Program-made: the position numbers and the translations under genes
Part shown: positions 530 to 36,324 of the stretch, piece by piece
Position numbering within the stretch: position 1 is the stretch's first letter
Layout: the number at the start of each line of letters is the position of its first letter
Notes under the pieces: generated by a model
The model's input: the letters and a program-made list of their open reading frames with translations, nothing else
Told to the model about the DNA's origin: nothing
Database searches by the model: none
Assembly: GCA_964648565.1 (NCBI GenBank)
Contig: CAZYLG010000001.1
Location: 12,315-76,314, forward strand
DNA from: an uncultured Thermoplasmatales archaeon
GTDB lineage: Archaea; Thermoplasmatota; E2; DHVEG-1
Direction of reading: 5' to 3'
Length of the DNA: 64,000 bases

Positions 530-530
530 T

Positions 531-758: not shown

Positions 759-762
759 ATAT

Positions 763-14702: not shown

Positions 14703-15065
14703 CTATTCTTGTTTTAATACATTAAATTCTAAAAATCTTTCATCATCAGGTGTTTCTTCTTTTAATTTAAATCCTATAACAACTTTTACTTTATTTTCAT
14801 CAGCTAAATTTTCTATATTTAAATCTAATATATCGACTCTTGGTTCATATAATTCAATTTGTTCGACAATTCTATCTTTTAAGAATCCTACAGTTTCATC
14901 ATCTCCTGGCTCAAATAACATAGAATTAATACTAACTCCAAAATAAGGATTCTTCAATCGCTCATTTTCATTCGTATTAAATAAGCGGCTTATTGATTCA
15001 GAAATTAAATCATGATCTTCTTTTATAATAAAAAAATCATGTCCGTACATTGCTATACCGCGCAT
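14703..15065 (-). CDS. baseplate wedge subunit gp25-like (GPW/gp25 lysozyme-like family), 120 aa
   Basis: NPYFGVSINSMLFEPGDDETVGFLKDRIVEQIELYEPRVDILDLNI aligns with T4 gp25 SRPFDPEFGCDLSDQLFENMTPLTADTVERNIESAVRNYEPRIDKLAVNV. GGAGG lies 8 nt upstream of the ATG. Confidence 0.85.
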   Translation of the reverse strand: MRGIAMYGHDFFIIKEDHDLISESISRLFNTNENERLKNPYFGVSINSMLFEPGDDETVGFLKDRIVEQIELYEPRVDILDLNIENLADENKVKVVIGFKLKEETPDDERFLEFNVLKQE

Positions 15066-15308: not shown

Positions 15309-15650
15309 ATGGGTAAATTTGAATTATATAAAGATAAATCTGGTGAATGGAGATTTCGTCTTAAAGCTGGCAACGGTGAAATAATAGCGGATTCTGAATC
15401 ATATAAAACAGAAGTAAACTGTTTAAATGGTGTTGCTTCACTCAAGAAAAATGTTTCAGAAACTAGTGCGTTTGAACAATTTCAAGATAAAGCTGATAAA
15501 TGGAGATTTAATATAAAAGCTAAAAATGGTGAGATTATAGCTAAATCAGAGGCATATGAATCAAAAGCAATGTGTGAGCATGGTATTGAATCTGTTAAAG
15601 AAAATGCAGTAAATTCCAGAATAATTTCAGAAGGTAGATTAATAAGTTAG
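15309..15650 (+). CDS. YegP-like (DUF1508/UPF0339) tandem-domain protein, 113 aa
   Basis: Two ~50-aa repeats: KDKSGEWRFRLKAGNGEIIADSESYKTEVNCLNGVASLKKN and DKADKWRFNIKAKNGEIIAKSEAYESKAMCEHGIESVKEN. This is the diagnostic YegP architecture. AGGAGG lies 4 nt upstream of the ATG. Confidence 0.8.
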   Translation: MGKFELYKDKSGEWRFRLKAGNGEIIADSESYKTEVNCLNGVASLKKNVSETSAFEQFQDKADKWRFNIKAKNGEIIAKSEAYESKAMCEHGIESVKENAVNSRIISEGRLIS

Positions 15651-15659
15651 AGGTTATTT

Positions 15660-15956
15660 ATGAGAGGAGACTCCACTCGTTATGCTAAAAAAAATATAAA
15701 CAACAATACTAATATGGATGATAAACGTCGATTAAAAAAACCCAAAGTATCGACGATACAAAAAAAGTATTATACATCACCAAAAACTAATACTTCTCAT
15801 TCTTCATCTACGTACGATGACTTAGAAAAATATATTAATAAAGTTACTGAAAAGACTATGAAAGAATTACGAAAAGGTTGGAAGAAATCGTACTCAGAAA
15901 AGTTTCAAAATACATATCCACAACTTAGTAAAAAAAATATCAATCTTAAGATATGA
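15660..15956 (+). CDS. small basic protein, 98 aa, Lys/Arg-rich; possible nucleic-acid-binding protein
   Basis: ORF with an AGAGG-like SD. Composition only, no motif. Confidence 0.4.
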   Translation: MRGDSTRYAKKNINNNTNMDDKRRLKKPKVSTIQKKYYTSPKTNTSHSSSTYDDLEKYINKVTEKTMKELRKGWKKSYSEKFQNTYPQLSKKNINLKI

Positions 15957-24000: not shown

Positions 24001-27000
24001 GAGAGAAACGTGCTAATCTTACTCCAGATTCACAAGCTGAACCGTCTGACCCATATACATTTAAGATTATTGTTGCCAATAAATATAAAAAATATGCAGT
24101 AATATCACCATTACAAATTCTATCAGATGCTGATTATCAACAATGGCATAAGATTTCATTCACAGTAAACTATGAAAAAGCATTTAATCAGAAACCAGCA
24201 TTTGATGAAAAAGACAAATATCAGAATATTATTACATTCTATCACAATAATCAATTAGCAATAGAATCATTTATTGTTAATGATTTAAATAGAGATGAGA
24301 AAGGTGAATTAATTCTTAATGAGTTAGCACAAGGAAATGAAATTGTAGAAGGATTTAAAGAAGAAGAAACAACAAATGCTTGGAATTATAATGATATCTC
24401 ATATTATATTACTATTGGTGGTGCATTTGATCAGACTCAATTATTAAGCGGTTATTATTCAGAATTACGAATAGATAATAAATTCACCAATAGAAAAGAA
24501 TTAACATATTGGAATGACAAAGAACTTCCTTTTATTGACCCCACAAATTATATCGACCAATCTACGTTTGTTAAAACTATAGATAGTAGAATTTTAAATG
24601 AATTCTGGTCATTAAAAAATGAATATGGTATAGGAGCGAAAGGGAATACGTTTGAAGATAAAACAAGAAAAAGATTTACTTATTTAAATAGTGAATTGGT
24701 ATGGGCACTAATGGAACCAACAATGAACTATTTAGAAAATTCAGATTTTACTGAAAACGAATTTGCTCATATTATTACAGATGTCCCACCACGTTTAAAT
24801 TCAAATATTAGTAAATATATGTTTATTTCTACTACTGGTTCACGAATTGCTACTGATAATGCTCAATCTACAATTAATGATGATGCATATGGTATATCAG
24901 TTCGTTTTTTCACGGATGAAGATGACTACGCAAATGGAATGAATTTTTATTCAGCAAAAGAATTGGTAGATCATATTAATGATGAGATATTCAGAACTGA
25001 TGGTGGAACGCCAGTAAATGGGAATACATATATTAGATGTCGATTACGAAAAGACGGAAAAATTGAATTTTATACAAAAGATTGGCAAGCTACATCAATT
25101 AAAATACAATTTGAAAATTCTGGTGATCATAGAGAAATAGGATTCAATAATGATAATCCTGATTTAATTGATTGGGAATATATGGGAGAATTACAAGGTG
25201 ATGAAGCAAATGTATATTTTATCGATACATTGCGTTCTGATTCATATGTACCAGACGGATCTCCTGCATATCCATTTAAATCATTTTTCGCAGCGAAATC
25301 ACAATTAGAAGTAGGATACGTATTATATATCGCAAATGGAGAAACAAATCCAGGATCTACATATGCAGATTTTGGAATTACTACAGGTGGTGGTGGCGGA
25401 ACAGTATTATTTACTGGACGTCAAATAACGAAAACAAAAGATACAAATTTTGAGATTTTAGGTTTAGATGGTGATACGGTAGGAAGACATGAAGTATGGA
25501 ATGAGTTCGATCCATTATATACTCGTTTGTCAAATAGAAGTTGGGGTATATTAAAAAATAGGGCATTGGGTGAAGATGAAACGATAACAATTTATTTTGA
25601 AAAAATTACACAAACAGGCGGCGCTCCTATTGATTTTGTACCGGGAGAATATTATACATTTTCTATGTATGTATATAGTGAAGATGAAGTTAGTAGTGAA
25701 AAAATTAAATTTATTAAAAGAGAAAATGGTACTGAAACAGAATTCTTCTTTGATGATATAGAAAAAATATATGGTAGTTGGATGAAGTTGACAAAAACAA
25801 CATCTTTCTCATCAGATCTTCAAGCAGATATCGGTATTATAGTAAAAAGAGATATTGAATTCTATATTGATGCTGTACAGTTAGAACGATCTAAATTCTC
25901 AACTCCATATATTAAAGAAAGAAATGATAACCATGGCGTGATTGAAATTAGTAGAGCATTGGTACAAAAACAACGTGGTATCATATTTTTTAGATTTAAA
26001 CCAATTATAAATTTTGATACTGAAGATGAAATTGTACTTTTAGAAGCAGTAAAATATCAAATTGATGAAGCGGGTGATTTAGTATATAAAGAAGGAAGTG
26101 ATGTACCACTTGTAGATTGGAATCGCGGATTTAGAATATCATATTATTATGATCCAACAATTGAAAAGGGTATCATAACATTTAAAACTGATAGTCTAGT
26201 AATTAATGATACCTCGACACATAAATTTTATATCGTAGAATCATTATGGGATTACTGGCATTCAGTCGCCATCTATTATGATTATCCTACAAATAGATTT
26301 ATCTATTATTTCGATCATTTTAAGTATGATACCGAATCTGGTGCGGCAGTTCAACCATTCGCATCCAATTTTTATATTGGTCGTGATGTGCCTAAAGACT
26401 ATACATCAAGTGGATCATTTGAATGGACTGATTCTATTGGATATGACGAAACAAAAAATCGTCCTTCAGCAAACATATTGGTGAAAGATGTTATTATTAC
26501 AAATTATCCAATATCTGACAGAGAATTATCTAATTGGAAAAATATACAAGAATTTTATAAAGAGAGTTCTTATATCCATTTATTAGATTACTATCAAGAT
26601 CAAGTATTACAAAGAATCTCTAACTTAGAATTAGTATCAGAAAATACAATTGAAATTAGTAATAAAATTGACTCATTTGAACAACAAATAAATCAGTTCG
26701 AAGAAAACCTAAATAATAACGTTAATACTCAATTACCACAAATAGAAAGTGATATTGCCACAAATGCAGCAAATATAACTACAAATGCAGATGACATCGA
26801 TGTATTAGAGCTTAATGTATCAAATTTAACAGCAGAACAATCTAATCAAGATGGTAGAATTACACAAAACGAGAGTGATATTGATTACAATTATAATTTG
26901 ATTCTTGCAGAAACACAAGCGCGAATCGATGCTGACGACATTATAGTAAATAGATTAATATCAAATAACATTGGTGATGGAGCTTCAACTGTTGGAATAG

Positions 27001-28853
27001 CAGATACAAATAATCGTTTTTCAGCTACAAATGTAGAAAATGCATTGCAAGAATTGGCTGGAGTGGATAGAGATGCTACCCATACGGTAAAGGGTAATTA
27101 TGATCTTATTCAAACTAATATCACTACCCTCACAGATTTACAAGAAGATGTACAGTACGCTCTTGATGCGAATACTGGTTCTTGGACTCAAGTGAAAGCA
27201 ACAAATAATGGTTGGAATATCGCAGATCTACGAACCGATGTAACAACAAATGCTGGAGATATAACCACTAATGCGGGAGATATCGCTCAAGAAATTATTG
27301 ATAGAGCTAACGCAGATCAACAGATTAGAGATGATTTGATTTCTACTGATAATGGTAAAGGAGCTTCATTAATCGGAGTAGAAGATTCAAACGGTGTGTT
27401 AACTGAAATTAATCTCGAAGCTGCTTTATATGAAATAATTGGATCAGGAAGAACAAATCAAACAATTAAAGATAATTGGGATCTTATTCAAACCAATATA
27501 AGTGATATTACAGATATTCAAAATGATGTTTCGAATATTAATACCGATTTATTAGAAATCGGTAAAATGAAAGACGGTACTGATGGATCTACTTGGGATT
27601 CATCAATGAATCTTAAGGATCATGAGGATCGATTAGATACCGCCGAAACAAATATTAGTACAAATGCTTCGGATATCGATACGAATGAAACAGATATCGC
27701 GAATACTCTTTCTTATGCTCAAGGGGTAAGAACAGACCTAACAACTGAAATTAGTAATAGACAGCAGGGCGATCAAGATATACGAAATGATTTAGCATCT
27801 ACTTCTGCTACGAAAGGTGCTTCAATGGTTGGAGTGAAAGATGAAAATGGATATTTTACCGAGAATACAGTAGAGGAAGTGTTATCTGAATTAGATGAAA
27901 AAATACAAACATTAGAAACAAGTCTTAACTGGAAAGAACCTGTTGATACTGTCGGTGACTTACCGACAACTGGTAATGATGATGGGGATGCTCGAACTGT
28001 ATTAGATGATGGTGATGGATTTGCAGCTCAATATGTATGGAATGGAACCTCATGGGTTAAAATTGCAGATATTAATTGGGGAACTGCATCGGATATTTCA
28101 TATACTAATACGACAACAGGAATGGATGCTACAAATGTACAATCTGCTATTGATGAAGTATATGAACGTTCACAAGATCCTTCTAAAGCAGAAGATGAAG
28201 TTGAAACTACTGATTATTCATCTAGTGGTGGTCGGTATTTTTATGATATTGATCATGAATTAAATACTCAAGACGTAACAGTTATACCGATTAGTAAAAC
28301 CGATGGTAGAGTTGTAGGAGTTGATGAAATAGAAGCTGTTGATTTTAACACAACACGAGTATGGGTAACTGATAACTCCGAGGGATTAAATTTTATAGTA
28401 TTCGGGGCTGTTCATAATTATTCAAAAACTGTAGGATCGTGGACACCTTCTAGTGGCACATATTATCATACAGTTAATCATAATCTTAATTCTCAACAAT
28501 TATTATTATCGGTATTCGACTTAAGTACTGGACATAGAGTAAATCTTGATGAAATACTATTTACTGATGATAATACGATTACACTTTGGACATCAGACAA
28601 CTTATTACAAGTCAATGTCTTTGTATTAAAACGAACATCAGATACAAAAGTAAAAGATATCGATAATTGGAATCCGGTGGCTGGCATGTATGAGGCATCC
28701 ATTAAAATGCCAGAAGATTATGATGCTGTTTATCAATTTATTGATCCTTCTACTGGAAGAATTGTTGGAGTTGATGATGTATGGTTTGATGGTGATTATC
28801 TTAAAGTACGAAGTTCAGATGATTCTCGTTTACGAATGGTTATCTTAAGATAA
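18006..28853 (+). CDS. giant mosaic tail-fibre/spike protein, 3615 aa. It has CBM-like (NPSFE...) jelly-roll domains, two DUF1565-type right-handed beta-helix segments, a coiled-coil/heptad region with a threefold GAS(L/M/T)(I/V)GV repeat, one WKEPV..DLP..GD.R.VL repeat, and three C-terminal ~60-aa repeats.
   Basis: GAGGAAACAGAG then ATG. CBM-like domains sit near nt 19500, 21400 and 25550. Beta-helix starts AFKTIGRAVEAI (~22760) and YPFKSFFAAKSQ (~25270). The heptad region spans ~26620..27920. The C-terminal repeats span ~28230..28850. Confidence 0.85.
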   Translation: MSITKKWSTGPLGNEYPDHSERGNPNTRGLTDNGIPGVEGYVEEDRVVASEDNRPLKNLTQNDQILENNLVDVASEVDYGVLKDKYDEFDLEIQELDYHQDPESDNPDDVVEITPLRIKSGSSFIDGQVTRTGNQQIIYFLRDDESYLFPDYDEHQGEVVIELFDKDYFGEYRPVYNTLAEELPSNFTDYEIKITNTDSSGSLEDRTSYYKVYRDWEDIVPYPPEEESQSQVLDFEYDANYGQDSEGVWLNPENDVINIKVSDVEVKKNIQVLDKHLRHNDFKLNPSTGNYEQILITDGIFFDNIRWDTSGEVVDIQDLVVDKDDNIFFIYDPYKLNLGEIDTLLLYKLSAESEQIDNIEITNILPTEKPMRLKLIDGYLFVLGEGALIKFLDIYVSSTVNEFITPLTGDTTQTFKDVVIWDDTLWIASNNTLYYTSWEDFKTSPRHATFTTIDFASEIESQGHADTLDYIQNIFTLKGNYVVDSSLIHDIDNIIDNPSFEEGGINNPPTSWDVTSSSGSATLKVASGNAQIGQMRAVLQPAINDNEISVYQDKKFDFETSQDYTFSIYLKASTDTDVDIILSELDDSDAIVDSTTQSETVTGNDTWIRFSVTHTVTDSTSVKLRVEVKKTDVNVLQFDGGQLELGASVSQFVHGYNYLFITFRKKDDTTNPPFAIIDERKKYDIQYTPNLYGKIQSINDILDRNHNEIYFIDDSHIYSMQLLNDVDHYDRINISNLSSQLFGDDFRERVKQLYSIEELNSRIYIGGTILNKNISFTIDDGETHTVELLHANEVTGGGSYLDFLTIIGDYNFIQASENSPARVEFSRTEELYESQNPTPTEGFYSAEQIYAFGIRIDDIEYLIKVDSAPQEFNSPWSIEDVYNKIVTHTTSEGYDVFSWHFDNSTLIVDGLYSIGMNKPTRYLRGNIKKIFKQENAEEKDVNERHLYIARENTIIRSKYDPNIKKVGDSYPSEPVVRGYVDSMDDLPSDPDNNDVYYVEGWGYFKWIESTSEWIDTHYFHRWDISDSNYELREFTKIANETITFNDTTHNRLFVDIPVSSGCELLTGSVRLKINDETEYGFIEGKDYFINYENKTVIRNDGKNLLSDSKLEHIDDPSTQWNIWSTHDDPEFNSLTNEFNEIFAEFYTVNQITEYVNFHQVVVPNTLSVGETFTFSIYVKSNIEFTSGNIRLAERINSGTNKNDLSLFYDDFIDGSTQTFFISNSELDIGKWHRIEVTHTIQNTESDCLRVEFYSALNHQIFVKNAQLEENPFATPYVPEEGFSRIDPQDTVYCDFIEYKVLTEGSDYTFNTDDNRRICLLNPIGSNSELYFDYEYERIFNPYKYGNSLPTFDVRYDNRDDYFLYENSGRIWAINQILALLSLDESLNVSYKYHYPRIDKIKIRNIPDKYGNFLYIVKGDFDVENPYSPGDLGNQRQVYVDGVYDVSIDDVNNEDNDVLYELNVVDLNFNKNDIYDRRIFIDSDTSPYFSISLQNETLAYFPFVKDFISTNGIHPLNQIDASRIVSIVKNYSIQQNEEVGAWGTDYQMSLRYKDGYPENIGPSLSTFVDNDNGKDDDPAYDGTSQLLAFKTIGRAVEAIRDEGAQPNIVIISTSTITEDVEIDLTQEILIKAKTYTRWRGNLQNRSKITFQGIIFENFNFYAIADLDFYHCNLEDSSINNYYPLNISLYNCKILDATNTFLRISSQLFPTPFAHPYMRNITRDDGVPGSPESVATSDGEAIHPEDLQYNFELFGDPIGNYTMYRCLMNGLSDDLIHYDLTNTQDWISNFDVEKCTIVNSKLLFKTSKPGQSILFNECIVWNNGEIRSGEKKYFDSRSNIEFLNSFIDFSVDPELVPASELNFNPIGGIFGRETCQFSGPNKDPGFISTDEETEDYHLRSIAKGFLTDSVCIGKASDGKDIGCYDEIRERVDLDVPKKFKSNFAYIAESIHYPIVVNSEKITFTVEFKPTETYNNTGILFDTRSDTDDDDYIVLLYNNNTGEKRANLTPDSQAEPSDPYTFKIIVANKYKKYAVISPLQILSDADYQQWHKISFTVNYEKAFNQKPAFDEKDKYQNIITFYHNNQLAIESFIVNDLNRDEKGELILNELAQGNEIVEGFKEEETTNAWNYNDISYYITIGGAFDQTQLLSGYYSELRIDNKFTNRKELTYWNDKELPFIDPTNYIDQSTFVKTIDSRILNEFWSLKNEYGIGAKGNTFEDKTRKRFTYLNSELVWALMEPTMNYLENSDFTENEFAHIITDVPPRLNSNISKYMFISTTGSRIATDNAQSTINDDAYGISVRFFTDEDDYANGMNFYSAKELVDHINDEIFRTDGGTPVNGNTYIRCRLRKDGKIEFYTKDWQATSIKIQFENSGDHREIGFNNDNPDLIDWEYMGELQGDEANVYFIDTLRSDSYVPDGSPAYPFKSFFAAKSQLEVGYVLYIANGETNPGSTYADFGITTGGGGGTVLFTGRQITKTKDTNFEILGLDGDTVGRHEVWNEFDPLYTRLSNRSWGILKNRALGEDETITIYFEKITQTGGAPIDFVPGEYYTFSMYVYSEDEVSSEKIKFIKRENGTETEFFFDDIEKIYGSWMKLTKTTSFSSDLQADIGIIVKRDIEFYIDAVQLERSKFSTPYIKERNDNHGVIEISRALVQKQRGIIFFRFKPIINFDTEDEIVLLEAVKYQIDEAGDLVYKEGSDVPLVDWNRGFRISYYYDPTIEKGIITFKTDSLVINDTSTHKFYIVESLWDYWHSVAIYYDYPTNRFIYYFDHFKYDTESGAAVQPFASNFYIGRDVPKDYTSSGSFEWTDSIGYDETKNRPSANILVKDVIITNYPISDRELSNWKNIQEFYKESSYIHLLDYYQDQVLQRISNLELVSENTIEISNKIDSFEQQINQFEENLNNNVNTQLPQIESDIATNAANITTNADDIDVLELNVSNLTAEQSNQDGRITQNESDIDYNYNLILAETQARIDADDIIVNRLISNNIGDGASTVGIADTNNRFSATNVENALQELAGVDRDATHTVKGNYDLIQTNITTLTDLQEDVQYALDANTGSWTQVKATNNGWNIADLRTDVTTNAGDITTNAGDIAQEIIDRANADQQIRDDLISTDNGKGASLIGVEDSNGVLTEINLEAALYEIIGSGRTNQTIKDNWDLIQTNISDITDIQNDVSNINTDLLEIGKMKDGTDGSTWDSSMNLKDHEDRLDTAETNISTNASDIDTNETDIANTLSYAQGVRTDLTTEISNRQQGDQDIRNDLASTSATKGASMVGVKDENGYFTENTVEEVLSELDEKIQTLETSLNWKEPVDTVGDLPTTGNDDGDARTVLDDGDGFAAQYVWNGTSWVKIADINWGTASDISYTNTTTGMDATNVQSAIDEVYERSQDPSKAEDEVETTDYSSSGGRYFYDIDHELNTQDVTVIPISKTDGRVVGVDEIEAVDFNTTRVWVTDNSEGLNFIVFGAVHNYSKTVGSWTPSSGTYYHTVNHNLNSQQLLLSVFDLSTGHRVNLDEILFTDDNTITLWTSDNLLQVNVFVLKRTSDTKVKDIDNWNPVAGMYEASIKMPEDYDAVYQFIDPSTGRIVGVDDVWFDGDYLKVRSSDDSRLRMVILR

Positions 28854-28945
28854 ATTTGAGGAATAATGAAATCTAAATACATACTACCAACATTCAAGAA
28901 TTTAGATGGATATTATGTATCTCTGGTGGTTATATCAGCAAGGGT

Positions 28946-29119
28946 ATGACTATTACTAAATATGAAATTTTATATCCTTGTGAACTAGATAGAGAAACTC
29001 AAAGACGTGTGAGATTTCAAATAAAAGGAAATGGTACTTCTGTTAAAGGGACTATATTTAAGAAAGAAAAATTTCATGACTCATTAAAAGGTATATTTAA
29101 GGATCTATTTAGTGGCTAA
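28946..29119 (+). CDS. small hypothetical protein, 57 aa (MTITKYEILYPCELDRETQRRV...)
   Basis: ATG at 28946 after a weak AAGGG. Short ORF, low confidence. The shorter ORF 28866..28952 overlaps it. Confidence 0.25.
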   Translation: MTITKYEILYPCELDRETQRRVRFQIKGNGTSVKGTIFKKEKFHDSLKGIFKDLFSG

Positions 29120-29480
29120 AAGAAAGAAAATGACATTACGCCAATATTATAAGACAGAACATTGGAAAAAGTTGAGAAATAAATTAGCTTATGGTGATGA
29201 TGCACAATGTGAGATATGTGGTGCCAATAGATGGGAGAACTATAAGATAGGTCCCAAGAAAGGTCAAAGGAGGCCTAAGAGTGTTAATAAGATACATATC
29301 CATCATAAACATTATGATACCATGTTGAATGAATCAAGAAATGACGTGATGCTTCTGTGTGACTCCTGTCATAAATTTTTTCATATGTTGGAGAAGATGA
29401 GAAAAAAACATTCTATGTATGAAAAAGCATATCAGGAGTTAAAAAAGGAATCAAAATGGGAATACAAGAAGCGAAAATAA
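29112..29480 (+). CDS. HNH endonuclease, 122 aa from GTG at 29112 or 116 aa from ATG at 29130
   Basis: CEICG...HIHHKHYD...LLCDSCHKFFH matches the HNH C..C / H..H / C..CH zinc-knuckle catalytic motif. Confidence 0.7.
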   Translation: MAKRKKMTLRQYYKTEHWKKLRNKLAYGDDAQCEICGANRWENYKIGPKKGQRRPKSVNKIHIHHKHYDTMLNESRNDVMLLCDSCHKFFHMLEKMRKKHSMYEKAYQELKKESKWEYKKRK

Positions 29481-29494
29481 GAGGAAGATATTAA

Positions 29495-29845
29495 ATGAAT
29501 TGGAAAGATAAATACGATGATGTAAGTGATTTTAAAGAAGGTAGAGCTAAAGTTGAACTAAATAATAAATATGGTCATGTAGATAAAAATGGTAATGTAA
29601 CTACCCCTATTATCTATGATATAACAGGATATTTTCAGGGAGGTAGGGCCGGTGTTGAGCTAAATGACAAACAAGGGCACGTTGATAAAAATGGTAATGT
29701 AACTACTCCTATTATTTATGATAGTGTAGGAAATTTTAGAAAAGGCGAAGCTTTGGTTAGATTAAATCGTAAAGAAGGTTATGTAAATAAAAATGGCAAA
29801 GTAATAGAAGGTCACTATGATTTAATTATAGGAGTTTTTAAATGA
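29495..29845 (+). CDS. KWG/WG-repeat protein, 3 repeats, 116 aa
   Basis: Repeats of GRAKVELNNKYGHVDKNGNVTTPIIYD.. match WG_beta_rep-like repeats with W replaced by Y. AGAGGAAG precedes the ATG. Confidence 0.7.
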   Translation: MNWKDKYDDVSDFKEGRAKVELNNKYGHVDKNGNVTTPIIYDITGYFQGGRAGVELNDKQGHVDKNGNVTTPIIYDSVGNFRKGEALVRLNRKEGYVNKNGKVIEGHYDLIIGVFK

Positions 29846-30396
29846 ATTGGAAAAATAAATATGATTATGTAAGTGATTTCCAAGAAGGTAGAGCTAAGGT
29901 TCGATTAAATGGTAAACAAGGTCATGTAGACAAAGAAGGTAACATTACTACTCCTATTATTTATAATAATGTAGGATATTTCCAAGAAGGTAGAGCTAAG
30001 GTTCGATTAAATGGTAAATACGGTCATGTTGATAAAGATGGTAACATTACTACTCCTGTTATTTATAATAATATAAGTCATTTCCAAGAAGGTAGAGCTG
30101 AAGTTGTAAAAAATGGTAAATACGGTCATGTAGACAAAAATGGTAATGTGACTACTCCTATTATTTATGATCTTATAGGAAATTTTCAAGGAGGTAGAGC
30201 TATAGTTGAATTAAATAATAAACAAGGTCATGTAGACAAAAACGGTAACATTACTACTCCTATTATTTATGATAATGTAGGATATTTCCAAGAAGGTAGA
30301 GCTAGAGTTGGATTAAATGGTAAATACGGTCATGTAGACAAAAATGGTAAAGTAATAGAAGGACAGTATGATTTAATTATAGGAGTTTTTAAATGA
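29842..30396 (+). CDS. KWG/WG-repeat protein, 5 repeats, 184 aa
   Basis: ATGA overlap with the upstream paralogue. The 39-aa repeats are near-identical at the DNA level. Confidence 0.7.
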   Translation: MNWKNKYDYVSDFQEGRAKVRLNGKQGHVDKEGNITTPIIYNNVGYFQEGRAKVRLNGKYGHVDKDGNITTPVIYNNISHFQEGRAEVVKNGKYGHVDKNGNVTTPIIYDLIGNFQGGRAIVELNNKQGHVDKNGNITTPIIYDNVGYFQEGRARVGLNGKYGHVDKNGKVIEGQYDLIIGVFK

Positions 30397-30641
30397 ATTG
30401 GAAAGATAAATATGATTATGTAAGTGATTTCCAAGAAGGTAGAGCTATAGTTGTAAAAAATGGTAAATATGGTCATGTAGACAAAAACGGTAATGTAACT
30501 ACTCCTATTATTTATGATCTTATAGATCATTTTAAAGAAGGTAGAGCTGAAGTTGGATTAGATGGTAAACAAGGACATGTAGACAAAAATGGTAAAGTAA
30601 TAGAAGGTCACTATGATTTAATTATAGGAGCGTTTAAATAA
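30393..30641 (+). CDS. KWG/WG-repeat protein, 2 repeats, 82 aa
   Basis: ATGA overlap. Same N-terminal cap (MNWKDKYDYVSDFQEGRA) and C-terminal cap (GKVIEGHYDLIIG.FK) as the other two. Confidence 0.7.
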   Translation: MNWKDKYDYVSDFQEGRAIVVKNGKYGHVDKNGNVTTPIIYDLIDHFKEGRAEVGLDGKQGHVDKNGKVIEGHYDLIIGAFK

Positions 30642-30708
30642 ATTATAAAAAACCCATAAAATAGTAAAGATAAATTAATAAGATGGACTGCACACAGTTC
30701 TTCTTAAT

Positions 30709-30762
30709 GGATTGTACTATATAGGTACAAAAACTATATATTGTACTTAATAGGTACAATCC
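30709..30762. promoter_or_regulatory. two operator-like palindromic sites TTGTAC-N7-GTACAA, nested in an outer inverted repeat GGATTGTAC...GTACAATCC, upstream of the TTG-start 1843-aa gene
   Basis: Site A 30709..30730 (ggattgtactatataggtacaa). Site B 30740..30762 (attgtacttaataggtacaatcc). Centres are about 29 bp apart and about 30 nt upstream of the start codon. Confidence 0.6.
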
Positions 30763-30792
30763 AATGAGTATATCTCAATAAGGAGGCACACC

Positions 30793-33700
30793 TTGGACTG
30801 GAAAGGTAAAATTAATTTTGACAAAGCAATCACTCTCAAAGGAAAACCCCATGGTATTGATAGGGAAACTACTCTTCCTACATTCGATCAACCACAAGAT
30901 GAAGGAAGAGTTGTATTCACAGAAGATACAAAAAAATTATGGGTAGGTACTGATACAGAATGGTCAGAACTTACTCCAGGAGGTATTGGTGTTCATTATC
31001 ATGATGATGTATACTATACAGAAACCGAAATTGATGACTTTTTTGAAGGAGAATCTGGTGGTAAAAAACAAGTTGATTGGATTAATATAACAACTAAGCC
31101 AACTGAATTTACTCCAGCAGATCATGATAATACTGTACATAGTGCGACATATATTGAAGTTGACGCTGTAAATTTTACAAATTTATCAGATAACGGAGCT
31201 GTAGGTACTTCTTCTAATCAAGTTGCAGTTGGAAGTCATAATCACGACTCTTCATATGCTCCATTAAATCCACCAGCAAATTCTATAACATATGATAATA
31301 CGACATCAGGACTTTCATCTACTGATGTTCAGGGTGCTATCGATACACTAGATTTACGTATTGATTATTCAGAAAATGCTGTTGAAGGAATTTTTTGGGT
31401 TGATAACACTAGAACTGATCCATACACAGAAACAGGTAATTTGGGAAAACCATTTAAGACAATTTCAGCGGCAATCACATACATAACCACAAATCATAGT
31501 GGTAAAGGAACCATTATGTTGGCTGAATCTGAATATGATGAGACGTTTACATTAGGTCCTAAAATGTCATTAAAGGGTTTCAGTTTCACAAAAATTATTG
31601 GTTCAGATACAGTTACGATTGGAGATGGTTCCACAAACGGTTCAAATTTAATAGAAAATGTTGTGTTTGAAAAAGAAGTAATTGTTAATATGGTTGATTC
31701 AGTACGATTTTCAAATGTGACTATTCAACAAGCTGGTTTTCTTACATTAACTGCCGGAAGTATTGAAGGAGATATTTCAGTTCAAACCAATTCAACTTCA
31801 CCGGCTTTAGTTATGAATGGTGGAGTATTATTTGGATATAATAGTTCATTCACAGCTACTCAAAATAGCGTTGTTACACATAATGGTGGTGAATTAATTC
31901 TATCAAATAGTGATATTTATGGAGTTACCACAGATACAACATTAATTTCAACTTCTGGTATTGTTAATCTATCTGATACAAGAGTAATTAATGCTTCAGG
32001 ATCGGGTCCAGCACTTTCGATTAATAATGGTGCTACAGTGGGGAATCCCAATATTTTATCAAATGTATACAAGGTTGGAGCTGGTGATTCAGACACTGCT
32101 GTAACATTAATAGATGGAGTGTTTGGTGATTCTACAATTACTGGTACTGCTCAAGCGTATAGAACATCAAAAAGAATTGGGTTCGACCCATCAACATCAA
32201 CTCTTACTTCTACCACAGTTCAGGGTGCTATTGATGAATTAGCAAATTCACATTCTGATTTTCAGTTAACAACTACTATTTACGTGGATAAAGATAGAAC
32301 TGATACGTATACTCCAACTGGAGCGATTGATCGGCCATTCACGAATATTGACGATGCTATAGCAGCCGCAGAAGCTGGTGATACAATCTTTCTTTTTAAG
32401 GGTGGATATTCATCATCAGGTACAATAACTCTTCCCGATAATGTTAATCTTATTGGAATGGGACAAGGTAAATCCAATATTTATAGTCCACTAGAAACAG
32501 GTGCAAATGGAAAATGTAGATTAGAACATATTTCATTTAGAAATACATTAACAATAAATACTGAAACGTATGTAGAATATATATACGCGAATACTACTGT
32601 AACTCTTAATGCAGGACTACAAGGTGAGGGATTCTCTATTATGGTTGATAGCGGACCGGCGTTGATTATGAATTCAGGTGGAAGTACAATGACGCTTAAT
32701 ACTTTATCTACTACAGATACAAATGAATCCGCGGTAGTAATGAATGCTGGATGTGGAGTCCTCACTCTTCAAGCTGCGAAAATACAAAATAATAGTGCTA
32801 CTGAACCGGCGCTAAATTCAGATGGTGGTTCAGTAATTCTTCTTACTACATCACTAATAAATACAGGTGGTGGTCTGGCAGCTGATTTAGAAAATGAATC
32901 CACAACATCAAATCCTAATATGTTGAGTAATGTTATTCATGTTGGTGGTATGGATACTGATGCTTCACCTACAATTATTGAAGGTGTACACGGTGGCGAT
33001 CCTTCTGGTACTGCTATGGCTTTACGACCAGCCACACAAATCGGATATGATCCTACTTCTTCTGGGCTATCTCTAACGACATTAGATGTACAATCAGCAA
33101 TCGATGAAGTCGCTGGAAGTCTAGGAACAGGTTCAGCGGTCAATATATCATATAATAATACAGATTCAACATTAGATTCGGTTAATGTTAAAGAGGCACT
33201 TGATGAATTAGATGCAGAAAAAGTAGGAAGCAGTCATAATCATAATAGTCTATATTATACTCAATCACAAATAGATACCAATTATTTATCTAAATCACAA
33301 CTATCTGATGTTACTCTTCAAAACGAACGAGCGGCATATCAAGAAGTTAATCTAACTGGTCAAAATGAAAGTGATCCATCGGGTCTCACTCCAGGAGATA
33401 CATATGATTTTACAATTGATGTAGATAGTACTGGAGAACAAACATTTTCTATTACCCCAGGGGTAGCTACCGCGGGTTATCAGGAATTAGGTCTGGGCGG
33501 AGTAGATGCTGGAACTGATAGTGGGTTATCTTCAGGAATATATTACTTCAAAATAAAAGTCAATGATAATACATTAAATCAATATAGTATAGAATTGGAT
33601 CCAGCAGAAGCTGCTTCACATGTTGGAACCGAAGATTTATCATCAGGATATAATTGGGAAAATGATAATCAAGATTTTGATATTAGTGTTAACGGTGGTT

Positions 33701-36324
33701 CTTCATTCACTGTTGATCTCACTGTATCATCAACTGGACTCACCGACATCATTTCAGAAATTAATTCAGTATTCACAAGTGAGGGAGTAAATTCAGAAAT
33801 TGAAGCTTATGATGCCGGTTCAAATCATGTGGGTATTAAAACAATTGCTACTGGATCATCAGAAACATTTACATTAACCTCTGGATTAAATGATGCGTTA
33901 ACTACATTAGGAATGACTGCTGGAACATATACTGGTTCAGATGCAACAGCAGGTTATCAAGACGTGAATCTTGATGGACAAATAACAAGTTTATTAAATG
34001 AAAGTGGTTTAAGCCAAGGCAACACATATAATTTTGTTGTTAATGGTTCATCATATAATATAGATGTTTTAGGTCCAACATCTGGCTACCAAGAATTAGG
34101 ATTAAGTGGAATATCTGGAGGTGATGATAGCGGATTAACAGCAGGTACAGTATATAATTATAATATAAAAATCGATGGTGGTTCTGCAACACCTCAAACT
34201 GTTACATTGTCCACTGGTGATAAAGAAGTAACAGAAGTTACTTGTCCAGCAGATTCTTCACAATCATTAAGCGGAGCATACTGGTTACTGTATAGTGCAA
34301 ATGATGCTACTGAGTATTATGTATGGTATAGAATGCAAGAGACAGCAGCACAACCTGCTAGTCATACCGGCACAGCTGATTTATCAAGCGGTTATACAGG
34401 TTGGTCTTCTACACCAGAAGACTTTAACATCAATTATAGTGGTTCAGATTACAACATCGTACTTGATACGGACACTACTGATGTAGCAACTACTGTAACA
34501 GAAATTAATAATTCATTATCTACAGCTGGTCTATCAGGAATAGAAGCATTCGCTTCTAGTAATAATGTTGGTTTAAGAACAACAGCCGCTGGTTCAACTG
34601 AATCGTTTACTCTTTCTGCTGGAGACACGGTAGATGCATTATCTACATTAGGAATGACTGCTGGAACATATACTGGTTCAGATGCTACATATTCAACAGA
34701 TCCTGCTCCTTCTGGAAAAACCCCTCTACAAGTTAATATTAGTGAAGATGATACAGCAGATAGTGTTGCATCAGCCACACAATCAATAATTGATGGCAAT
34801 AGTAATTTTGATGCTACTGTTAGTACAAACGTGGTAACAACAACAAATGCAGATACTGGAGTGACGACTGATGCAAATGATCCTGCTTCTAATTTTACAT
34901 TTACGATAACAACACAGGGTACTAATGATTCTACTACATATAATGATTTAGTTACTGTTCTAAGTAGTGTGACAGGGGTAACCTGGTCAATAACTGGTGG
35001 TGATTTAAGAGCTACATCTGATACGACTGGAATATCTTCAACAATAGAATTAAGTGCTGGAGGATCACCAGATTTATTAGCTGCACTCGGGGCTTCATTG
35101 GAACCCTCTATGTCAGGATCTGACGGTACTGATACAACATGGGATAGTATTCTATTCGAATTAAACACAGAAACCTCAGGTATTGCTACATGGACAGAAG
35201 AAAGTGGAAATATTCGGTGTACTAATGATACCACTGGTTCGAGTTCAACGATAACACTTGCTGATGGAAGTACAAATAATTTATTTTCATCATTAAATTA
35301 CATACAAGCCACACATTTTATTAATCAAACTTCTGGAGTGGATGCACAACCGGCTAGCCATGACGGAACAGTCGATGTATCTGGTTCAATTGATTTTACA
35401 GACAAACGAGAAACATTAGTAATTAATAGCACTACAGTGACATTAGATGCAGATACAATCAATTTAACTGAAGTGATAGCTGAAGTTAATGATGCATTGA
35501 CTCCATTAAGTGATTTACAAGCTTATGATGCCGGTTCAAATCATGTGGGTATTAGAACAATTGCTACTGGATCATCAGAAACATTTACGATTAATTCAGG
35601 AGATGGTCTACTTACATTAGGGTGGACTGCTGGAACATATACAGGTGCAGATGCTACAGATACAACATGGTCTAATATTATATCACTAATGAATGCATCT
35701 ACGATATCAAGCTGTACATGGACAATTGTGAGTGGTGATGTTCGATGTACAGCAGATTTTACAGGAGATTCTTCGACTATTGATTTACAGCCAGGAGATA
35801 CAAATGATTTATACAATGCTTTAGGGGCTTCAACTCCATACGATACTGCAGTGGATGGTACTGATGCTTCAGATTTATTCAGTGATGTTTTAACACAGAT
35901 GAATAGTTCAACAACTATCGGTGTAACTTGGACATGGGAGAGTGGAAATATTAGAGCTACAAGAGATATGATCGGGTCAAGTTATTCAGTCATTATTTCT
36001 GCTGGACCATCAAATGATTTATTTTCAAATCTTAATGGATATATAGGAATCTCTTCTGCTGTATCTGGTTTAGATGAAGATACAACTACCGGTTCAGACT
36101 GGATAGGAGTAGAAGGTATAGAAGGAGTTACTCCAACTGGAAAATCTGTTGGAGATAGTGGTACACTACAGGAAGTATTAGAGGGGGTAGCAACAAAACC
36201 ACTAAGTCTCACTTCCGGCTCTCCATCAGATAGTCCTTTACCAGGAACAGCAAAATTTGATACATCAACAAATATATTATATGTTTATAATGGTACTTCT
36301 TGGGTAAGTACTACATTATCATAA
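30793..36324 (+). CDS. giant fibre/spike protein, 1843 aa, probable TTG start. Two DUF1565-type beta-helix domains. Three copies of a ~100-aa module are also present in the 3055-aa protein. Contains HxH..YYT motifs.
   Basis: AGGAGG at 30781..30786, 6 nt before the TTG. Beta-helix starts GNLGKPFKTISAAI (~31440) and AIDRPFTNIDDAIAAAEAGDTIFLF (~32320). Module copies sit near 33640..33960, 34390..34700 and 35380..35650. Confidence 0.8.
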   Translation: MDWKGKINFDKAITLKGKPHGIDRETTLPTFDQPQDEGRVVFTEDTKKLWVGTDTEWSELTPGGIGVHYHDDVYYTETEIDDFFEGESGGKKQVDWINITTKPTEFTPADHDNTVHSATYIEVDAVNFTNLSDNGAVGTSSNQVAVGSHNHDSSYAPLNPPANSITYDNTTSGLSSTDVQGAIDTLDLRIDYSENAVEGIFWVDNTRTDPYTETGNLGKPFKTISAAITYITTNHSGKGTIMLAESEYDETFTLGPKMSLKGFSFTKIIGSDTVTIGDGSTNGSNLIENVVFEKEVIVNMVDSVRFSNVTIQQAGFLTLTAGSIEGDISVQTNSTSPALVMNGGVLFGYNSSFTATQNSVVTHNGGELILSNSDIYGVTTDTTLISTSGIVNLSDTRVINASGSGPALSINNGATVGNPNILSNVYKVGAGDSDTAVTLIDGVFGDSTITGTAQAYRTSKRIGFDPSTSTLTSTTVQGAIDELANSHSDFQLTTTIYVDKDRTDTYTPTGAIDRPFTNIDDAIAAAEAGDTIFLFKGGYSSSGTITLPDNVNLIGMGQGKSNIYSPLETGANGKCRLEHISFRNTLTINTETYVEYIYANTTVTLNAGLQGEGFSIMVDSGPALIMNSGGSTMTLNTLSTTDTNESAVVMNAGCGVLTLQAAKIQNNSATEPALNSDGGSVILLTTSLINTGGGLAADLENESTTSNPNMLSNVIHVGGMDTDASPTIIEGVHGGDPSGTAMALRPATQIGYDPTSSGLSLTTLDVQSAIDEVAGSLGTGSAVNISYNNTDSTLDSVNVKEALDELDAEKVGSSHNHNSLYYTQSQIDTNYLSKSQLSDVTLQNERAAYQEVNLTGQNESDPSGLTPGDTYDFTIDVDSTGEQTFSITPGVATAGYQELGLGGVDAGTDSGLSSGIYYFKIKVNDNTLNQYSIELDPAEAASHVGTEDLSSGYNWENDNQDFDISVNGGSSFTVDLTVSSTGLTDIISEINSVFTSEGVNSEIEAYDAGSNHVGIKTIATGSSETFTLTSGLNDALTTLGMTAGTYTGSDATAGYQDVNLDGQITSLLNESGLSQGNTYNFVVNGSSYNIDVLGPTSGYQELGLSGISGGDDSGLTAGTVYNYNIKIDGGSATPQTVTLSTGDKEVTEVTCPADSSQSLSGAYWLLYSANDATEYYVWYRMQETAAQPASHTGTADLSSGYTGWSSTPEDFNINYSGSDYNIVLDTDTTDVATTVTEINNSLSTAGLSGIEAFASSNNVGLRTTAAGSTESFTLSAGDTVDALSTLGMTAGTYTGSDATYSTDPAPSGKTPLQVNISEDDTADSVASATQSIIDGNSNFDATVSTNVVTTTNADTGVTTDANDPASNFTFTITTQGTNDSTTYNDLVTVLSSVTGVTWSITGGDLRATSDTTGISSTIELSAGGSPDLLAALGASLEPSMSGSDGTDTTWDSILFELNTETSGIATWTEESGNIRCTNDTTGSSSTITLADGSTNNLFSSLNYIQATHFINQTSGVDAQPASHDGTVDVSGSIDFTDKRETLVINSTTVTLDADTINLTEVIAEVNDALTPLSDLQAYDAGSNHVGIRTIATGSSETFTINSGDGLLTLGWTAGTYTGADATDTTWSNIISLMNASTISSCTWTIVSGDVRCTADFTGDSSTIDLQPGDTNDLYNALGASTPYDTAVDGTDASDLFSDVLTQMNSSTTIGVTWTWESGNIRATRDMIGSSYSVIISAGPSNDLFSNLNGYIGISSAVSGLDEDTTTGSDWIGVEGIEGVTPTGKSVGDSGTLQEVLEGVATKPLSLTSGSPSDSPLPGTAKFDTSTNILYVYNGTSWVSTTLS

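What the first reader, a model, noticed from the sequence alone, without database searches (positions are those of the whole stretch)
29112..30641. HNH endonuclease followed by three tandem KWG/WG-repeat mini-genes with near-identical DNA repeats
Three complete paralogues of 116, 184 and 82 aa carry 3, 5 and 2 repeats. Each has the same MNWKDKYD cap and ..GKVIEGHYDLIIG.FK end, is linked by ATGA overlaps, and consists only of 39-aa WG-type beta-repeats (GKYGHVDKNGNVTTPIIYD..F.EGRA.V). Stretches of 40 to 60 nt are identical between copies, for example at 29842 and 30393. WG/KWG repeat proteins are of unknown function, and no precedent is known to me for their presence as a tandem family inside a phage fibre locus. 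The repeat-number differences look like products of unequal recombination. The adjacent HNH nuclease could promote such rearrangement or mark a mobile cassette. They could be fibre-associated adaptor or decoration proteins, or intracellular modulators.
Basis: partly seen in the sequence, partly recalled or inferred. Interest (0 to 1): 0.55.

Follow-up and report, generated by a model that had tools for sequence, protein, structure and literature searches.

The report
Mobile nuclease cassette carrying amplified WG-repeat genes
Between two giant tail-fibre genes of an uncultivated large phage sits an insertion made of a small HNH-type nuclease gene and a beta-repeat ("WG") gene amplified to three copies; related phages carry the same cassette elsewhere or lack it, so it is a movable accessory module, not a fixed fibre component.

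Summary
Window 29112-30641 encodes a 122-aa HNH-like protein followed by three genes of 116, 184 and 82 aa. Each is an 8-aa cap, then 3, 5 or 2 WG_beta_rep units, then a 6-aa end, and the genes are joined by ATGA overlaps.

Two corrections: the unit is 34 aa (102 nt), not 39. The longest exact shared run is 42 nt, or 72 nt with one mismatch.

Comparison with relatives decides the interpretation.
- In one syntenic relative the two fibre genes lie 46 nt apart, with no cassette.
- In a closer relative the same gene set (small ORF, HNH, one 3-repeat WG gene) lies in a different slot, which is empty (9 nt) in the window.
- In a 437-kb phage the HNH is ATGA-coupled to a 7-repeat WG gene.

Small, signal-less, capped WG genes with 2-7 repeats form arrays of up to 8 genes in several other huge-phage contigs.

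I read the block as a mobile HNH cassette whose WG cargo was amplified by unequal recombination. The WG proteins are predicted to be soluble all-beta repeat arrays. I infer that the arrays are open-ended. Their biochemical function remains unknown. This is a new variant of known kinds and of moderate interest.

The parts
18006..28853 (+). Left flank: 3615-aa giant fibre-like protein. Its orthologue in the relative L014 ends 46 nt before the orthologue of the right-flank gene.
   Evidence: 52% identity over 1817 aa to L016; 31-42% to L014
28866..28949 (+). N-terminal remnant of the cassette's first ORF. It is homologous to residues 1-25 of the 88-aa ORF of L016 and is cut off by a 10-nt deletion (frameshift). 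The left edge of the cassette lies 12 nt after the fibre gene's stop codon.
   Evidence: (DNA homology window 28862-29119 to L016 9464-9731, 81%)
28946..29119 (+). 57-aa ORF, the C-terminal part of the 88-aa cassette ORF. It is 86% identical to L016, with dN/dS 0.13. No family match.
29112..29480 (+). 122-aa HNH-like (His-Me finger) protein, basic (pI 9.9), with zinc-type CxxC...CxxC. The probable catalytic residues are H64/H65, D78 and H87/H91.
29495..29845 (+). WG gene A, 116 aa: cap + 3 units + tail. It is the orthologue of the single 117-aa WG gene of L016 (65.5% identity, dN/dS 0.26).
29842..30396 (+). WG gene B, 184 aa: cap + 5 units + tail. ATGA overlap with A. AF2 model: all-beta, pLDDT 94.4, with a low-confidence C-terminal tail.
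30393..30641 (+). WG gene C, 82 aa: cap + 2 units + tail. ATGA overlap with B.
30712..30759 (.). Two perfect copies of a palindromic 19-bp site, TTGTAC-N7-GTACAA, 29 nt apart, in the spacer before the right-flank gene. The empty site of the relative has a single GTAC-centred hairpin here. Probably a terminator or operator of the backbone rather than part of the cassette.
30793..36324 (+). Right flank: 1843-aa fibre-like protein (TTG start). Its N-terminal 156 aa are 52.6% identical to L014 5178-6653.
15650..15660 (.). Empty site in the window that corresponds to the slot holding the cassette in L016. It lies between the DUF1508 gene 15309-15650 and the ORF 15660-15953.

Best explanation
The 1.9-kb block 28866-30641 is an accessory, mobile gene cassette that has landed in the spacer between two tail-fibre genes of a T4-like-baseplate jumbo phage.

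Its core is a small HNH (His-Me finger) nuclease gene. Ahead of it is a small ORF of unknown function. Behind it is a WG beta-repeat gene that travels as linked cargo and is ATGA-coupled to the HNH in two relatives.

The most likely means of movement is the one known for free-standing homing endonuclease genes. The nuclease cuts a cassette-less phage genome during co-infection, and recombinational repair copies the nuclease gene and its neighbours.

In this lineage the single 3-repeat WG gene was amplified into three tandem genes with 3, 5 and 2 units. The mechanism is unequal homologous recombination between the 102-nt units and between the near-identical gene ends. Each gene end also carries the Shine-Dalgarno sequence and the ATG of the next copy.

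The products are small, hydrophilic, signal-less all-beta proteins. I infer an open, capped array of 34-aa three-strand units. That architecture tolerates any repeat number and usually serves as a binding scaffold. I infer that they act as dispensable binding proteins for a host or phage ligand, and that their dose and length evolve quickly.

Shown here: gene structure, family membership, purifying selection, presence/absence and relocation among relatives, and concerted evolution of the units.

Inferred, not shown: nuclease activity, homing as the transfer mechanism, time of expression, and the ligand.
For: **Structure and family.**

**Empty site at the window's slot.** In the syntenic relative IMGVR_UViG_3300002026_002465, the orthologues of the 3615-aa and 1843-aa genes are 46 nt apart (L014 5131 to 5178).

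**Same cassette in another slot.** This is seen in the closer relative ENA ERZ23499083 scaffold_499 (L016), whose baseplate wedge is 63% identical and whose giant protein is 52% identical.
- The order there is 88-aa ORF (86% identical to the window's 57-aa ORF), a 94-aa ORF, HNH (75%), one WG gene (65.5%, 3 units), and a 69-aa ORF.
- This set lies between orthologues of window 15309-15650 and 15660-15953.
- Those two genes are 9 nt apart in the window.

**HNH-WG pair with a 4-nt overlap.** It is also found in a 437-kb contig (L019), where the WG gene has 7 units. The same HNH protein is indexed on at least 24 long contigs.

**Other slots.**
- A lone WG gene lies after the orthologue of window 49239-54317 in L011, where the window has a 4-nt gap.
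- Two WG genes fill the gp25/gp6 slot in L007. In the window that slot holds a 533-aa homing endonuclease, and in L016 it is empty.

**Real, constrained genes.** dN/dS between window and L016 is 0.26 (WG), 0.16 (HNH) and 0.13 (small ORF), at dS of about 0.5-0.9.

**Unequal recombination.** Units are most alike within a genome, while the terminal unit is orthologous between genomes.

**Fold.** The AF2 model has pLDDT 94.4 and pTM 0.86, with three strands per unit. It resembles propeller blades only locally (TM 0.27-0.48). Repeat numbers of 2-7 in paralogues and up to 24 matched stretches in bacterial relatives argue for an open array.

**Known framework for nuclease genes with cargo in phages.** PMC10448857.
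Against: - **The HNH assignment is not secure.** Pfam is below its cut-off. NCBIfam gives nothing. The top five Foldseek hits are HNH nucleases (Cap5, Gme), but only at E 0.3-0.8.
- **The protein is small.** At 122 aa it has no recognisable extra DNA-binding domain, unlike the T4 Mob and Seg homing enzymes.
- **The HNH-WG linkage is facultative.** Most close HNH homologues have no WG gene within 5-6 kb (L018/L020, L021-L024, L030-L033, L035-L037). Most WG arrays have no HNH nearby.
- **The cassette is not strikingly better conserved than the backbone.** Cassette proteins are 65-86% identical to L016 against 52-68% for backbone proteins. There is no sign of a recent transfer.
- **No cleavage site or co-conversion tract could be identified.**
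- **WG genes recur next to baseplate or fibre genes.** This holds for the window, L016, L007, L010 and L011, and leaves a structural role open.
- **Nothing shows what the WG proteins bind.**
Confidence: 0.6

Rival explanations
1. The WG proteins are fibre- or baseplate-associated structural accessories (adaptor, decoration or assembly factor). They are expressed late from the fibre operon. The HNH gene is an unrelated neighbour.
For: - They are on the same strand as the flanking fibre genes, tightly packed with them, and no convincing promoter of their own was found.
- WG genes lie beside baseplate or fibre genes in the window, L016, L007, L010 and L011.
- A conserved C-terminal tail (Y-x-L-I-x-G-x-F), modelled with low confidence, could be a docking peptide.
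Against: - Orthologous fibres in relatives have no WG gene next to them (L014). The WG gene of L011 follows a different fibre gene. They are therefore not dedicated partners of the flanking fibres.
- In L001/L002, L008, L009, L012 and L019 the genes lie among small non-structural genes.
- There is no match to tail-fibre chaperone or assembly families in Pfam or PHROGs.
Confidence: 0.2
2. The block is an ordinary variable 'moron' region shaped by illegitimate or homologous recombination. The HNH protein has a housekeeping role, for example DNA processing as in terminase-associated HNH proteins of cos phages. It does not mobilise anything.
For: - The HNH family is well conserved (57-77% identity) across many large phage contigs and mostly occurs without WG genes.
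- It has the architecture of small phage HNH proteins: an N-terminal W..LR helix, CxxC, HH, CxxCH (comparison with HK97 gp74-type proteins is from my own knowledge).
- No target site was found.
Against: - No terminase lies in the 64-kb window around it.
- The gene was not recovered from UViG_3300002026_002465 by the pattern scan of IMG/VR and it occupies different slots in related backbones. This is not how a core function behaves.
- Three genes move together as a set.
Confidence: 0.25
3. The three genes are an assembly or sequencing artefact: one long WG gene broken by frameshifts, or a mis-assembled repeat with the wrong copy number.
For: - Short-k-mer assemblies break inside the array (L015 ends at window 29827; the L003-L005 contigs all start inside a WG gene).
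- Exact sequences A and B are not in the protein collection, although C and the HNH are.
Against: - The junctions are not repeat-to-repeat. Each has the full tail (KVIEGHYDLIIGVFK), a stop codon, and the full cap (MNWKDKYD). Both are the true termini of single-copy orthologues in L016, L019 and P0020.
- The copies differ at 8-48% of nucleotide positions and share at most 42 exact nt, so ordinary reads can resolve them.
- An independent assembly reproduces the left junction at 100% identity.
- The same ATGA-linked tandem arrangement is seen in another phage (L003).
- Copy number itself could not be checked without reads.
Confidence: 0.04
4. The 102-nt repeats are template and variable repeats of a diversity-generating retroelement. 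A neighbouring protein has an Mtd-type domain.
For: The 1277-aa protein at 43707-47540 matches the Pfam Mtd second domain.
Against: - Differences between the closest units are spread over all base types and are not adenine-specific.
- No reverse transcriptase turned up among the window proteins scanned against families.
- The repeats are in-frame protein units of a known Pfam repeat.
Confidence: 0.01

Closest known systems
Free-standing HNH homing endonuclease genes of T4-like and other lytic phages (T4 mobA-E; 'HEG islands' with cargo genes, PMC10448857; PMC2790892; PMC2988022)
   Same: - A small nuclease gene sits in a spacer between conserved genes.
- It is present, absent or relocated among related genomes, with precise empty sites.
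- Neighbouring genes move with it.
- A second, unrelated homing endonuclease (533 aa, PHROG 3339) occupies another slot of the same baseplate module in this window.
   Different: - The protein is only 122 aa with no recognisable DNA-binding extension.
- Nuclease activity, target site and biased inheritance are untested.
- The cargo is a non-essential repeat gene rather than a core gene.
- The cassette shows no elevated nucleotide identity relative to the backbone.
Pfam WG_beta_rep (PF14903; 'WG containing repeat', also called KWG Leptospira repeat) proteins of bacteria
   Same: - The same repeat at sequence level (E down to 7e-42).
- The same W-x-K-x-Y-D-x-V start of the first unit as in small secreted Chitinophagaceae proteins.
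- Function unknown in both.
   Different: - Bacterial members are typically long (median 456 aa in 80 loci; up to 24 matched stretches). They carry signal or lipoprotein peptides or extra domains.
- The phage genes have 2-7 units and no signal peptide.
- The tryptophan is mostly replaced (K[YQE]GHVD).
- They have a conserved C-terminal tail and are tandemly amplified.
Multigene families of repeat proteins in large DNA viruses (ankyrin, kelch and BTB-WD40 families of poxviruses and giant viruses); 'gene accordion' amplification (from my own knowledge)
   Same: - Many paralogues per genome.
- Tandem arrays.
- Variable repeat number.
- Lineage-specific expansion.
- Dispensable position in the genome.
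   Different: - A different fold, and a bacterial virus.
- No evidence yet of a host target or of selection by a host defence.
Small repeat lectins that build beta-propellers by oligomerisation (e.g. Ralstonia RSL, two repeats x 3; from my own knowledge)
   Same: - Very small proteins made of two or a few blade-like beta units.
- Foldseek places the units nearest to propeller blades.
   Different: - Global superposition on propellers is poor (TM 0.27-0.48, rmsd 7-14 A).
- The free variation of 2-7 units argues against a closed ring.
- Oligomerisation was not testable here.

Membership tests
WG_beta_rep (PF14903) | Match to the Pfam repeat model above the gathering score, in several tandem copies | tested here: met
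   76.8, 141.5 and 57.9 bits against a cut-off of 25.6, with 3, 5 and 2 stretches
WG_beta_rep (PF14903) | Conserved Trp-Gly in each unit | tested here: not met
   the position is Y, Q or E in all ten window units (K[YQE]G). W is present in some units of the L019 orthologue. This departs from the family consensus, but the model score is unaffected.
HNH / His-Me finger endonuclease | Sequence match to HNH profiles | tested here: inconclusive
   Pfam HNH E 0.31, 11.7 bits against a cut-off of 21.4. PHROG HNH families E 6.7e-7 to 4e-3. NCBIfam gives nothing. JGI names two homologues McrA.
HNH / His-Me finger endonuclease | Conserved catalytic and metal ligands: HH, Asn or equivalent, His, and two CxxC pairs | tested here: met
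   C33, C36, H64, H65, D78 (at the Asn position), C83, C86, H87 and H91 are invariant or nearly so in 29 homologues
HNH / His-Me finger endonuclease | Beta-beta-alpha-metal fold | tested here: inconclusive
   The AF2 model (pLDDT 86.8) has a hairpin at 53-65, a strand at 79-83 and a helix at 84-99. The top five PDB matches are HNH nucleases, but at E 0.3-0.8 and TM 0.26-0.37.
Free-standing homing endonuclease gene | Sporadic presence among related genomes, with an intact empty site in genomes that lack it | tested here: met
   empty site in L014 (46 nt), and a reciprocal empty site in the window at 15650-15660 for the L016 slot
Free-standing homing endonuclease gene | Site-specific cleavage of the endonuclease-less allele and biased inheritance with co-conversion of flanks | not testable with these tools
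   Needs enzyme assays and co-infection crosses
Tail-fibre chaperone or assembly proteins (Tfa, gp38, gp57A types) | Profile match to a known chaperone or assembly family | tested here: not met
   no such family among the Pfam or PHROG matches. The only PHROG hits are weak matches to families of unknown function.
Tail-fibre chaperone or assembly proteins (Tfa, gp38, gp57A types) | Conserved position directly after the cognate fibre gene in relatives | tested here: not met
   absent after the orthologous fibre gene in L014, and at other positions in L016 and L011
Closed beta-propeller | Fixed blade number and global superposition on propeller structures | tested here: not met
   2-7 units in paralogues; best TM 0.48 at rmsd 7-14 A
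Diversity-generating retroelement repeats | Adenine-specific differences between template and variable repeat | tested here: not met
Known anti-phage defence proteins (PADLOC) | Profile match | tested here: not met
   no match for the WG proteins or the small ORF; only a chance-level Cas10 hit for the HNH

The most novel reading that the evidence does not exclude
The HNH and WG genes form a functional two-part system. The 34-aa beta units, whose variable residues cluster at a few fixed positions, would be a modular recognition array. That array would direct or regulate the small nuclease, which has no DNA-binding domain of its own. Alternatively, it would bind a host defence or surface component whose variation drives the copy- and repeat-number 'accordion'. 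On this reading, huge phages carry a rapidly evolving beta-repeat specificity family that has not been described.
Probability: 0.07. Interest if true: 0.8.

Novelty: new variant of a known kind. Interest (0 to 1): 0.42.

Why it matters
WG/KWG repeats are a very large protein family: more than 72,000 clusters at 50% identity match the profile. No function is known and no structure has been solved.

The phage genes are the smallest natural versions, at two to seven units with defined caps. They are soluble by prediction and occur as natural series of different length. That makes them convenient material for solving the fold and for finding a ligand.

The locus also gives a clean three-genome example of a nuclease-linked cassette hopping between spacers of a tail module and amplifying its cargo. 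This bears on how fibre regions of huge phages diversify.

It would not change current concepts unless the nuclease and the repeat protein prove to work together.

Tried and rejected
- **DNA search in deposited phages.** A search of the block against 50,697 deposited phages found no match.
- **Protein search in deposited phages.** It found only long lipoprotein-type WG genes in Clostridioides phages and a faecal phage, and a 564-aa WG ORF in Wolbachia WO. None is a mini tandem array.
- **Finding relatives through the fibre genes.** Using the fibre C-terminus or the next fibre's N-terminus as query found nothing. Relatives were reached instead through the WG and HNH proteins and by walking along a contig.
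- **PDB sequence search.** No match for the WG protein and only noise for the HNH.
- **Promoter and terminator scans.** Uninformative in this AT-rich repeat. The T4 late-promoter motif TATAAATA is not enriched.
- **MDWKGK / MNWKDK resemblance.** The first residues of the 1843-aa fibre resemble the WG cap. I judged this coincidental, because the L014 orthologue starts MRWQGS.
- **DGR hypothesis.** Rejected.
- **Defence-system match.** None.
- **Neighbours of WG arrays in other loci.** No informative Pfam domains.
- **Source record.** Looking up gene C to get the NCBI record name failed.
- **Literature.** Searches found no functional study of WG repeats and no description of the phage arrays.
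- **Composition.** The cassette is only slightly more AT-rich than its flanks, about 30% against 33-37% GC. This is not decisive.
Full report
**1. What is in the sequence**

The window region 28854-30792 lies between two very large co-directional genes: 18006-28853 (3615 aa) and 30793-36324 (1843 aa). It contains five small ORFs on the + strand:
- 28946-29119, 57 aa
- 29112-29480, 122 aa, GTG start
- 29495-29845, 116 aa (gene A)
- 29842-30396, 184 aa (gene B)
- 30393-30641, 82 aa (gene C)

A/B and B/C overlap by ATGA.

Pfam assigns A, B and C to WG_beta_rep (PF14903), with 3, 5 and 2 stretches at E 1.2e-21, 7.4e-42 and 9.8e-16. Tandem Repeats Finder gives a period of 102 nt.

Written in register, each protein is MNWK[DN]KYD, then n units of 34 aa, then IIG[VA]FK.

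The cap imitates the end of a unit (..PIIYD), and the tail imitates the start of one (NVGYFQ). The codons of the tail (ATA GGA GTT TTT AAA TGA) contain the Shine-Dalgarno sequence and the start codon of the next gene.

The longest exact shared stretches are 30, 37 and 42 nt. The region around the B and C starts is 72 nt with one mismatch. There is no other WG ORF in the window.

**2. Are the genes real?**

Three observations reject the 'one gene with frameshifts' idea.
- Single-copy orthologues in other phages have the same cap and tail. These are the L016 117-aa gene, the L019 252-aa gene and P0020 at 116 aa.
- Against the L016 orthologue, gene A has dN/dS 0.26 at dS of about 0.9. The HNH gives 0.16 and the 57-aa ORF 0.13.
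- An independent Logan assembly (L015) is 100% identical to window 27504-29827. It stops exactly where a 37-nt stretch is shared with gene C. This is what a k-mer assembler is expected to do.

Copy number itself cannot be verified without reads.

**3. The 122-aa protein**

The Pfam HNH match is below threshold (E 0.31). Several PHROG HNH-endonuclease families match at E of about 1e-6.

Twenty-nine homologues of 57-100% identity keep these residues invariant or nearly so: C33-x2-C36, H64-H65, D78 (at the Asn position), C83-x2-C86-H87 and H91.

The AF2 model (pLDDT 86.8) has a beta hairpin followed by a strand and a long helix. Its five best PDB matches are HNH nucleases (CBASS Cap5 and Gme HNH). 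They are not significant, at E 0.3-0.8.

I treat it as a probable His-Me finger nuclease. It is basic (pI 9.9) and has no recognisable additional DNA-binding domain.

**4. Genomic setting**

The window is the baseplate and fibre region of a large myovirus-type phage.
- 14703-15065 is gp25-like (Pfam GPW_gp25).
- 10826-13102 is a gp6-type baseplate wedge protein (PHROG 219).
- The 1692-aa protein has tail-fibre PHROG hits.
- The 1162-, 657- and 1277-aa proteins share an N-terminal LWENNPDTP..S.LSKS.DF motif. This is what several receptor-binding proteins docking on one adaptor would look like.

No deposited phage resembles the block at DNA level.

**5. Relatives decide the interpretation**

(a) IMGVR_UViG_3300002026_002465 (178 kb; L011 and L014) is syntenic with window 26000-56500 at 30-52% protein identity.
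- The orthologue of the 3615-aa gene ends at L014 5131, and the orthologue of the 1843-aa gene starts at 5178.
- The 46-nt spacer holds only a GTAC-centred hairpin.
- The whole block is absent.

(b) ENA ERZ23499083 scaffold_499 (L016) is closer: baseplate wedge 63%, gp25-like 58%, giant protein 52% over 1817 aa.
- It carries, in order, an 88-aa ORF (86% identical to the window's 57-aa ORF), a 94-aa ORF, the HNH (75%), one WG gene of 117 aa with 3 units (65.5% to A), and a 69-aa ORF.
- These lie between the orthologues of window 15309-15650 (DUF1508) and 15660-15953.
- Those two genes are 9 nt apart in the window.
- DNA homology between the two cassettes starts at window 28862, 9 nt after the fibre stop codon. 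The cassette's first start codon follows at 28866.
- The window copy of the first ORF has a 10-nt deletion. The deletion splits it into a 27-codon remnant (28866-28949) and the 57-aa ORF.

(c) In a 437-kb contig (L019), the HNH (71-76%) overlaps by ATGA a 252-aa WG gene with 7 units. That HNH protein is indexed on at least 24 long contigs. The HNH and WG genes also overlap by ATGA in L016.

(d) WG genes occupy further slots.
- One frameshifted copy (in an A9 run) lies after the orthologue of window 49239-54317 in L011. The window has a 4-nt gap there.
- Two copies lie between the gp25-like and gp6-like genes in L007.
- In the window that same slot holds a 533-aa homing endonuclease (PHROG 3339, E 1e-127). 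In L016 the slot is empty.

(e) The linkage is not obligatory.
- Most other close HNH homologues have no WG gene within 5-6 kb.
- Most WG arrays have no HNH nearby.

**6. The WG mini-gene family**

Capped, signal-less WG genes of 82-275 aa with 2-7 units occur in arrays in several uncultivated huge-phage contigs:
- seven in 7 kb in L001
- four plus two in UViG_3300028920_000032
- two plus two in UViG_3300028920_000056
- eight in 6 kb in L012
- at least two ATGA-linked copies in L003, where three independent contigs all break inside the upstream copy

Units are most similar within a genome: C1/B3 92% and B1/B2 90% in the window, L19_1/L19_4 95% and L19_2/L19_3 93% in L019. The special terminal unit (..GKVIEGHYDL) is orthologous between genomes. 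This is the signature of repeated, lineage-specific unequal recombination.

The wider WG family is very large, with 72,116 clusters at 50% identity at E <= 1e-3.
- Bacterial members are long (median 456 aa in 80 loci).
- The small bacterial ones carry a signal peptide directly followed by the same W-x-K-x-Y-D-x-V cap.
- The nearest bacterial relatives, at about 50% identity, are in Bacteroidales and other Bacteroidota MAGs. This is a weak hint about the host.
- WG genes in deposited phage records are long genes, two of them of lipoprotein type, not mini arrays.

**7. Fold**

AF2 on gene B with 98 homologues gives pLDDT 94.4 and pTM 0.86. The model is all-beta with three strands per unit. Only the last 20 or so residues, the conserved tail, have low confidence.

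Foldseek finds propeller proteins (BamB, WD40, hemopexin) only with poor global fit: TM 0.27-0.48 and rmsd 7-14 A. No solved structure matches by sequence.

Together with the free variation in unit number, this points to an open, capped array of blade-like units rather than a closed propeller. That is an inference, because I could not inspect the coordinates.

The proteins are hydrophilic, have no hydrophobic segment, and range in pI from 5.4 to 9.3.

**8. Interpretation**

The best-supported reading is a mobile accessory cassette built around a small HNH nuclease gene. It has a WG repeat gene as co-transcribed cargo, it inserted in a fibre-gene spacer, and its cargo has been amplified from one gene to three.

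This fits what is known of free-standing homing endonuclease genes and their cargo in lytic phages (PMC2988022, PMC2790892, PMC10448857).

What the WG proteins do is not shown by any result. I infer a dispensable binding function whose dosage and length change quickly.

A dedicated role in assembling the neighbouring fibres is unlikely, because orthologous fibres lack WG neighbours. A looser association with the tail module cannot be excluded.

The DGR idea, a match to known defence systems, and the artefact idea were tested and rejected.

**9. Novelty and score**

Both ingredients are known kinds: the WG_beta_rep repeat and phage HNH cassettes. The following appear new:
- the minimal, signal-less, capped form of the repeat
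- its amplification into arrays in huge phages
- its recurrent ATGA coupling to a small HNH gene that changes slot between related genomes

I found no description of these in the literature. Interest is moderate at 0.42. It would rise sharply only if the nuclease and the repeat protein were shown to act together.

Noticed in passing
window 13095-14696 (- strand): A 533-aa homing endonuclease (PHROG 3339 E 1e-127; PHROG 559 HNH E 5e-99) sits between the gp25-like gene (14703-15065) and the gp6-like baseplate wedge gene (10826-13102). The same junction is empty in L016 (3-nt gap). In L007 it holds two WG genes plus a 108-aa ORF.
   Followed up: partly
window 30712-30730 and 30741-30759: Two perfect copies of a palindromic site, TTGTAC-N7-GTACAA, lie 29 nt apart just upstream of the 1843-aa gene. 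None occurs elsewhere in the window. The relative has a single GTAC-centred hairpin (TGTGGGTAC-TCA-GTACCCACA) at the equivalent empty site (L014 about 5143-5163). It could be an operator, a terminator or a nuclease target.
   Followed up: partly
window 43707-47540: The 1277-aa protein matches the Pfam 'Mtd second domain' (PF21916, E 3.6e-8), a domain of the DGR-diversified receptor-binding protein of Bordetella phage BPP-1. I did not search for a reverse transcriptase or for template/variable repeats.
   Followed up: no
window 36340-39828, 40902-42875, 43707-47540: Three large proteins (1162, 657 and 1277 aa) share an N-terminal motif, LWENNPDTP..S.LSKS.DF, which is also present in their L014 orthologues. 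This suggests several receptor-binding proteins with a common anchor.
   Followed up: partly
window 28866-29119: The small ORF ahead of the HNH is a split version of an 88-aa ORF that is intact in L016. A 10-nt deletion shifts the frame, leaving a 27-codon remnant and a 57-aa ORF that starts at an internal Met.
   Followed up: yes
L011 9987-10370: The single WG gene of the relative UViG_3300002026_002465 is interrupted by a frameshift in a run of nine A. With eight A the ORF would be intact (MTIRQLKKIYDYTDDEF...). This is a sequencing error, a pseudogene or a slippery run.
   Followed up: partly
L014 4229-4245: In the relative, the orthologue of the 3615-aa protein is split into two overlapping ORFs (1-4245 and 4229-5131). 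The split falls at the point corresponding to window residue 3330 or so.
   Followed up: no
window 15309-15650: This protein has two DUF1508 repeats (113 aa, E 1.5e-40), where the L016 orthologue has one (87 aa). It is another small repeat-number difference between the two phages.
   Followed up: no
window 56778-58115, 59929-60963, 61978-63009 (- strand): A tRNA nucleotidyltransferase (PHROG 2244 E 5e-76), a radical SAM/SPASM protein and a DHH-DHHA1 phosphoesterase lie on the opposite strand at the right end of the window. No tRNA genes were found in the window.
   Followed up: no
window 30007-30189 and 30330-30530 (- strand): Antisense ORFs of 60 and 66 aa run through the WG repeats, and similar antisense ORFs appear in L001. 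They are by-products of the AT-rich in-frame repeat, not genes.
   Followed up: partly
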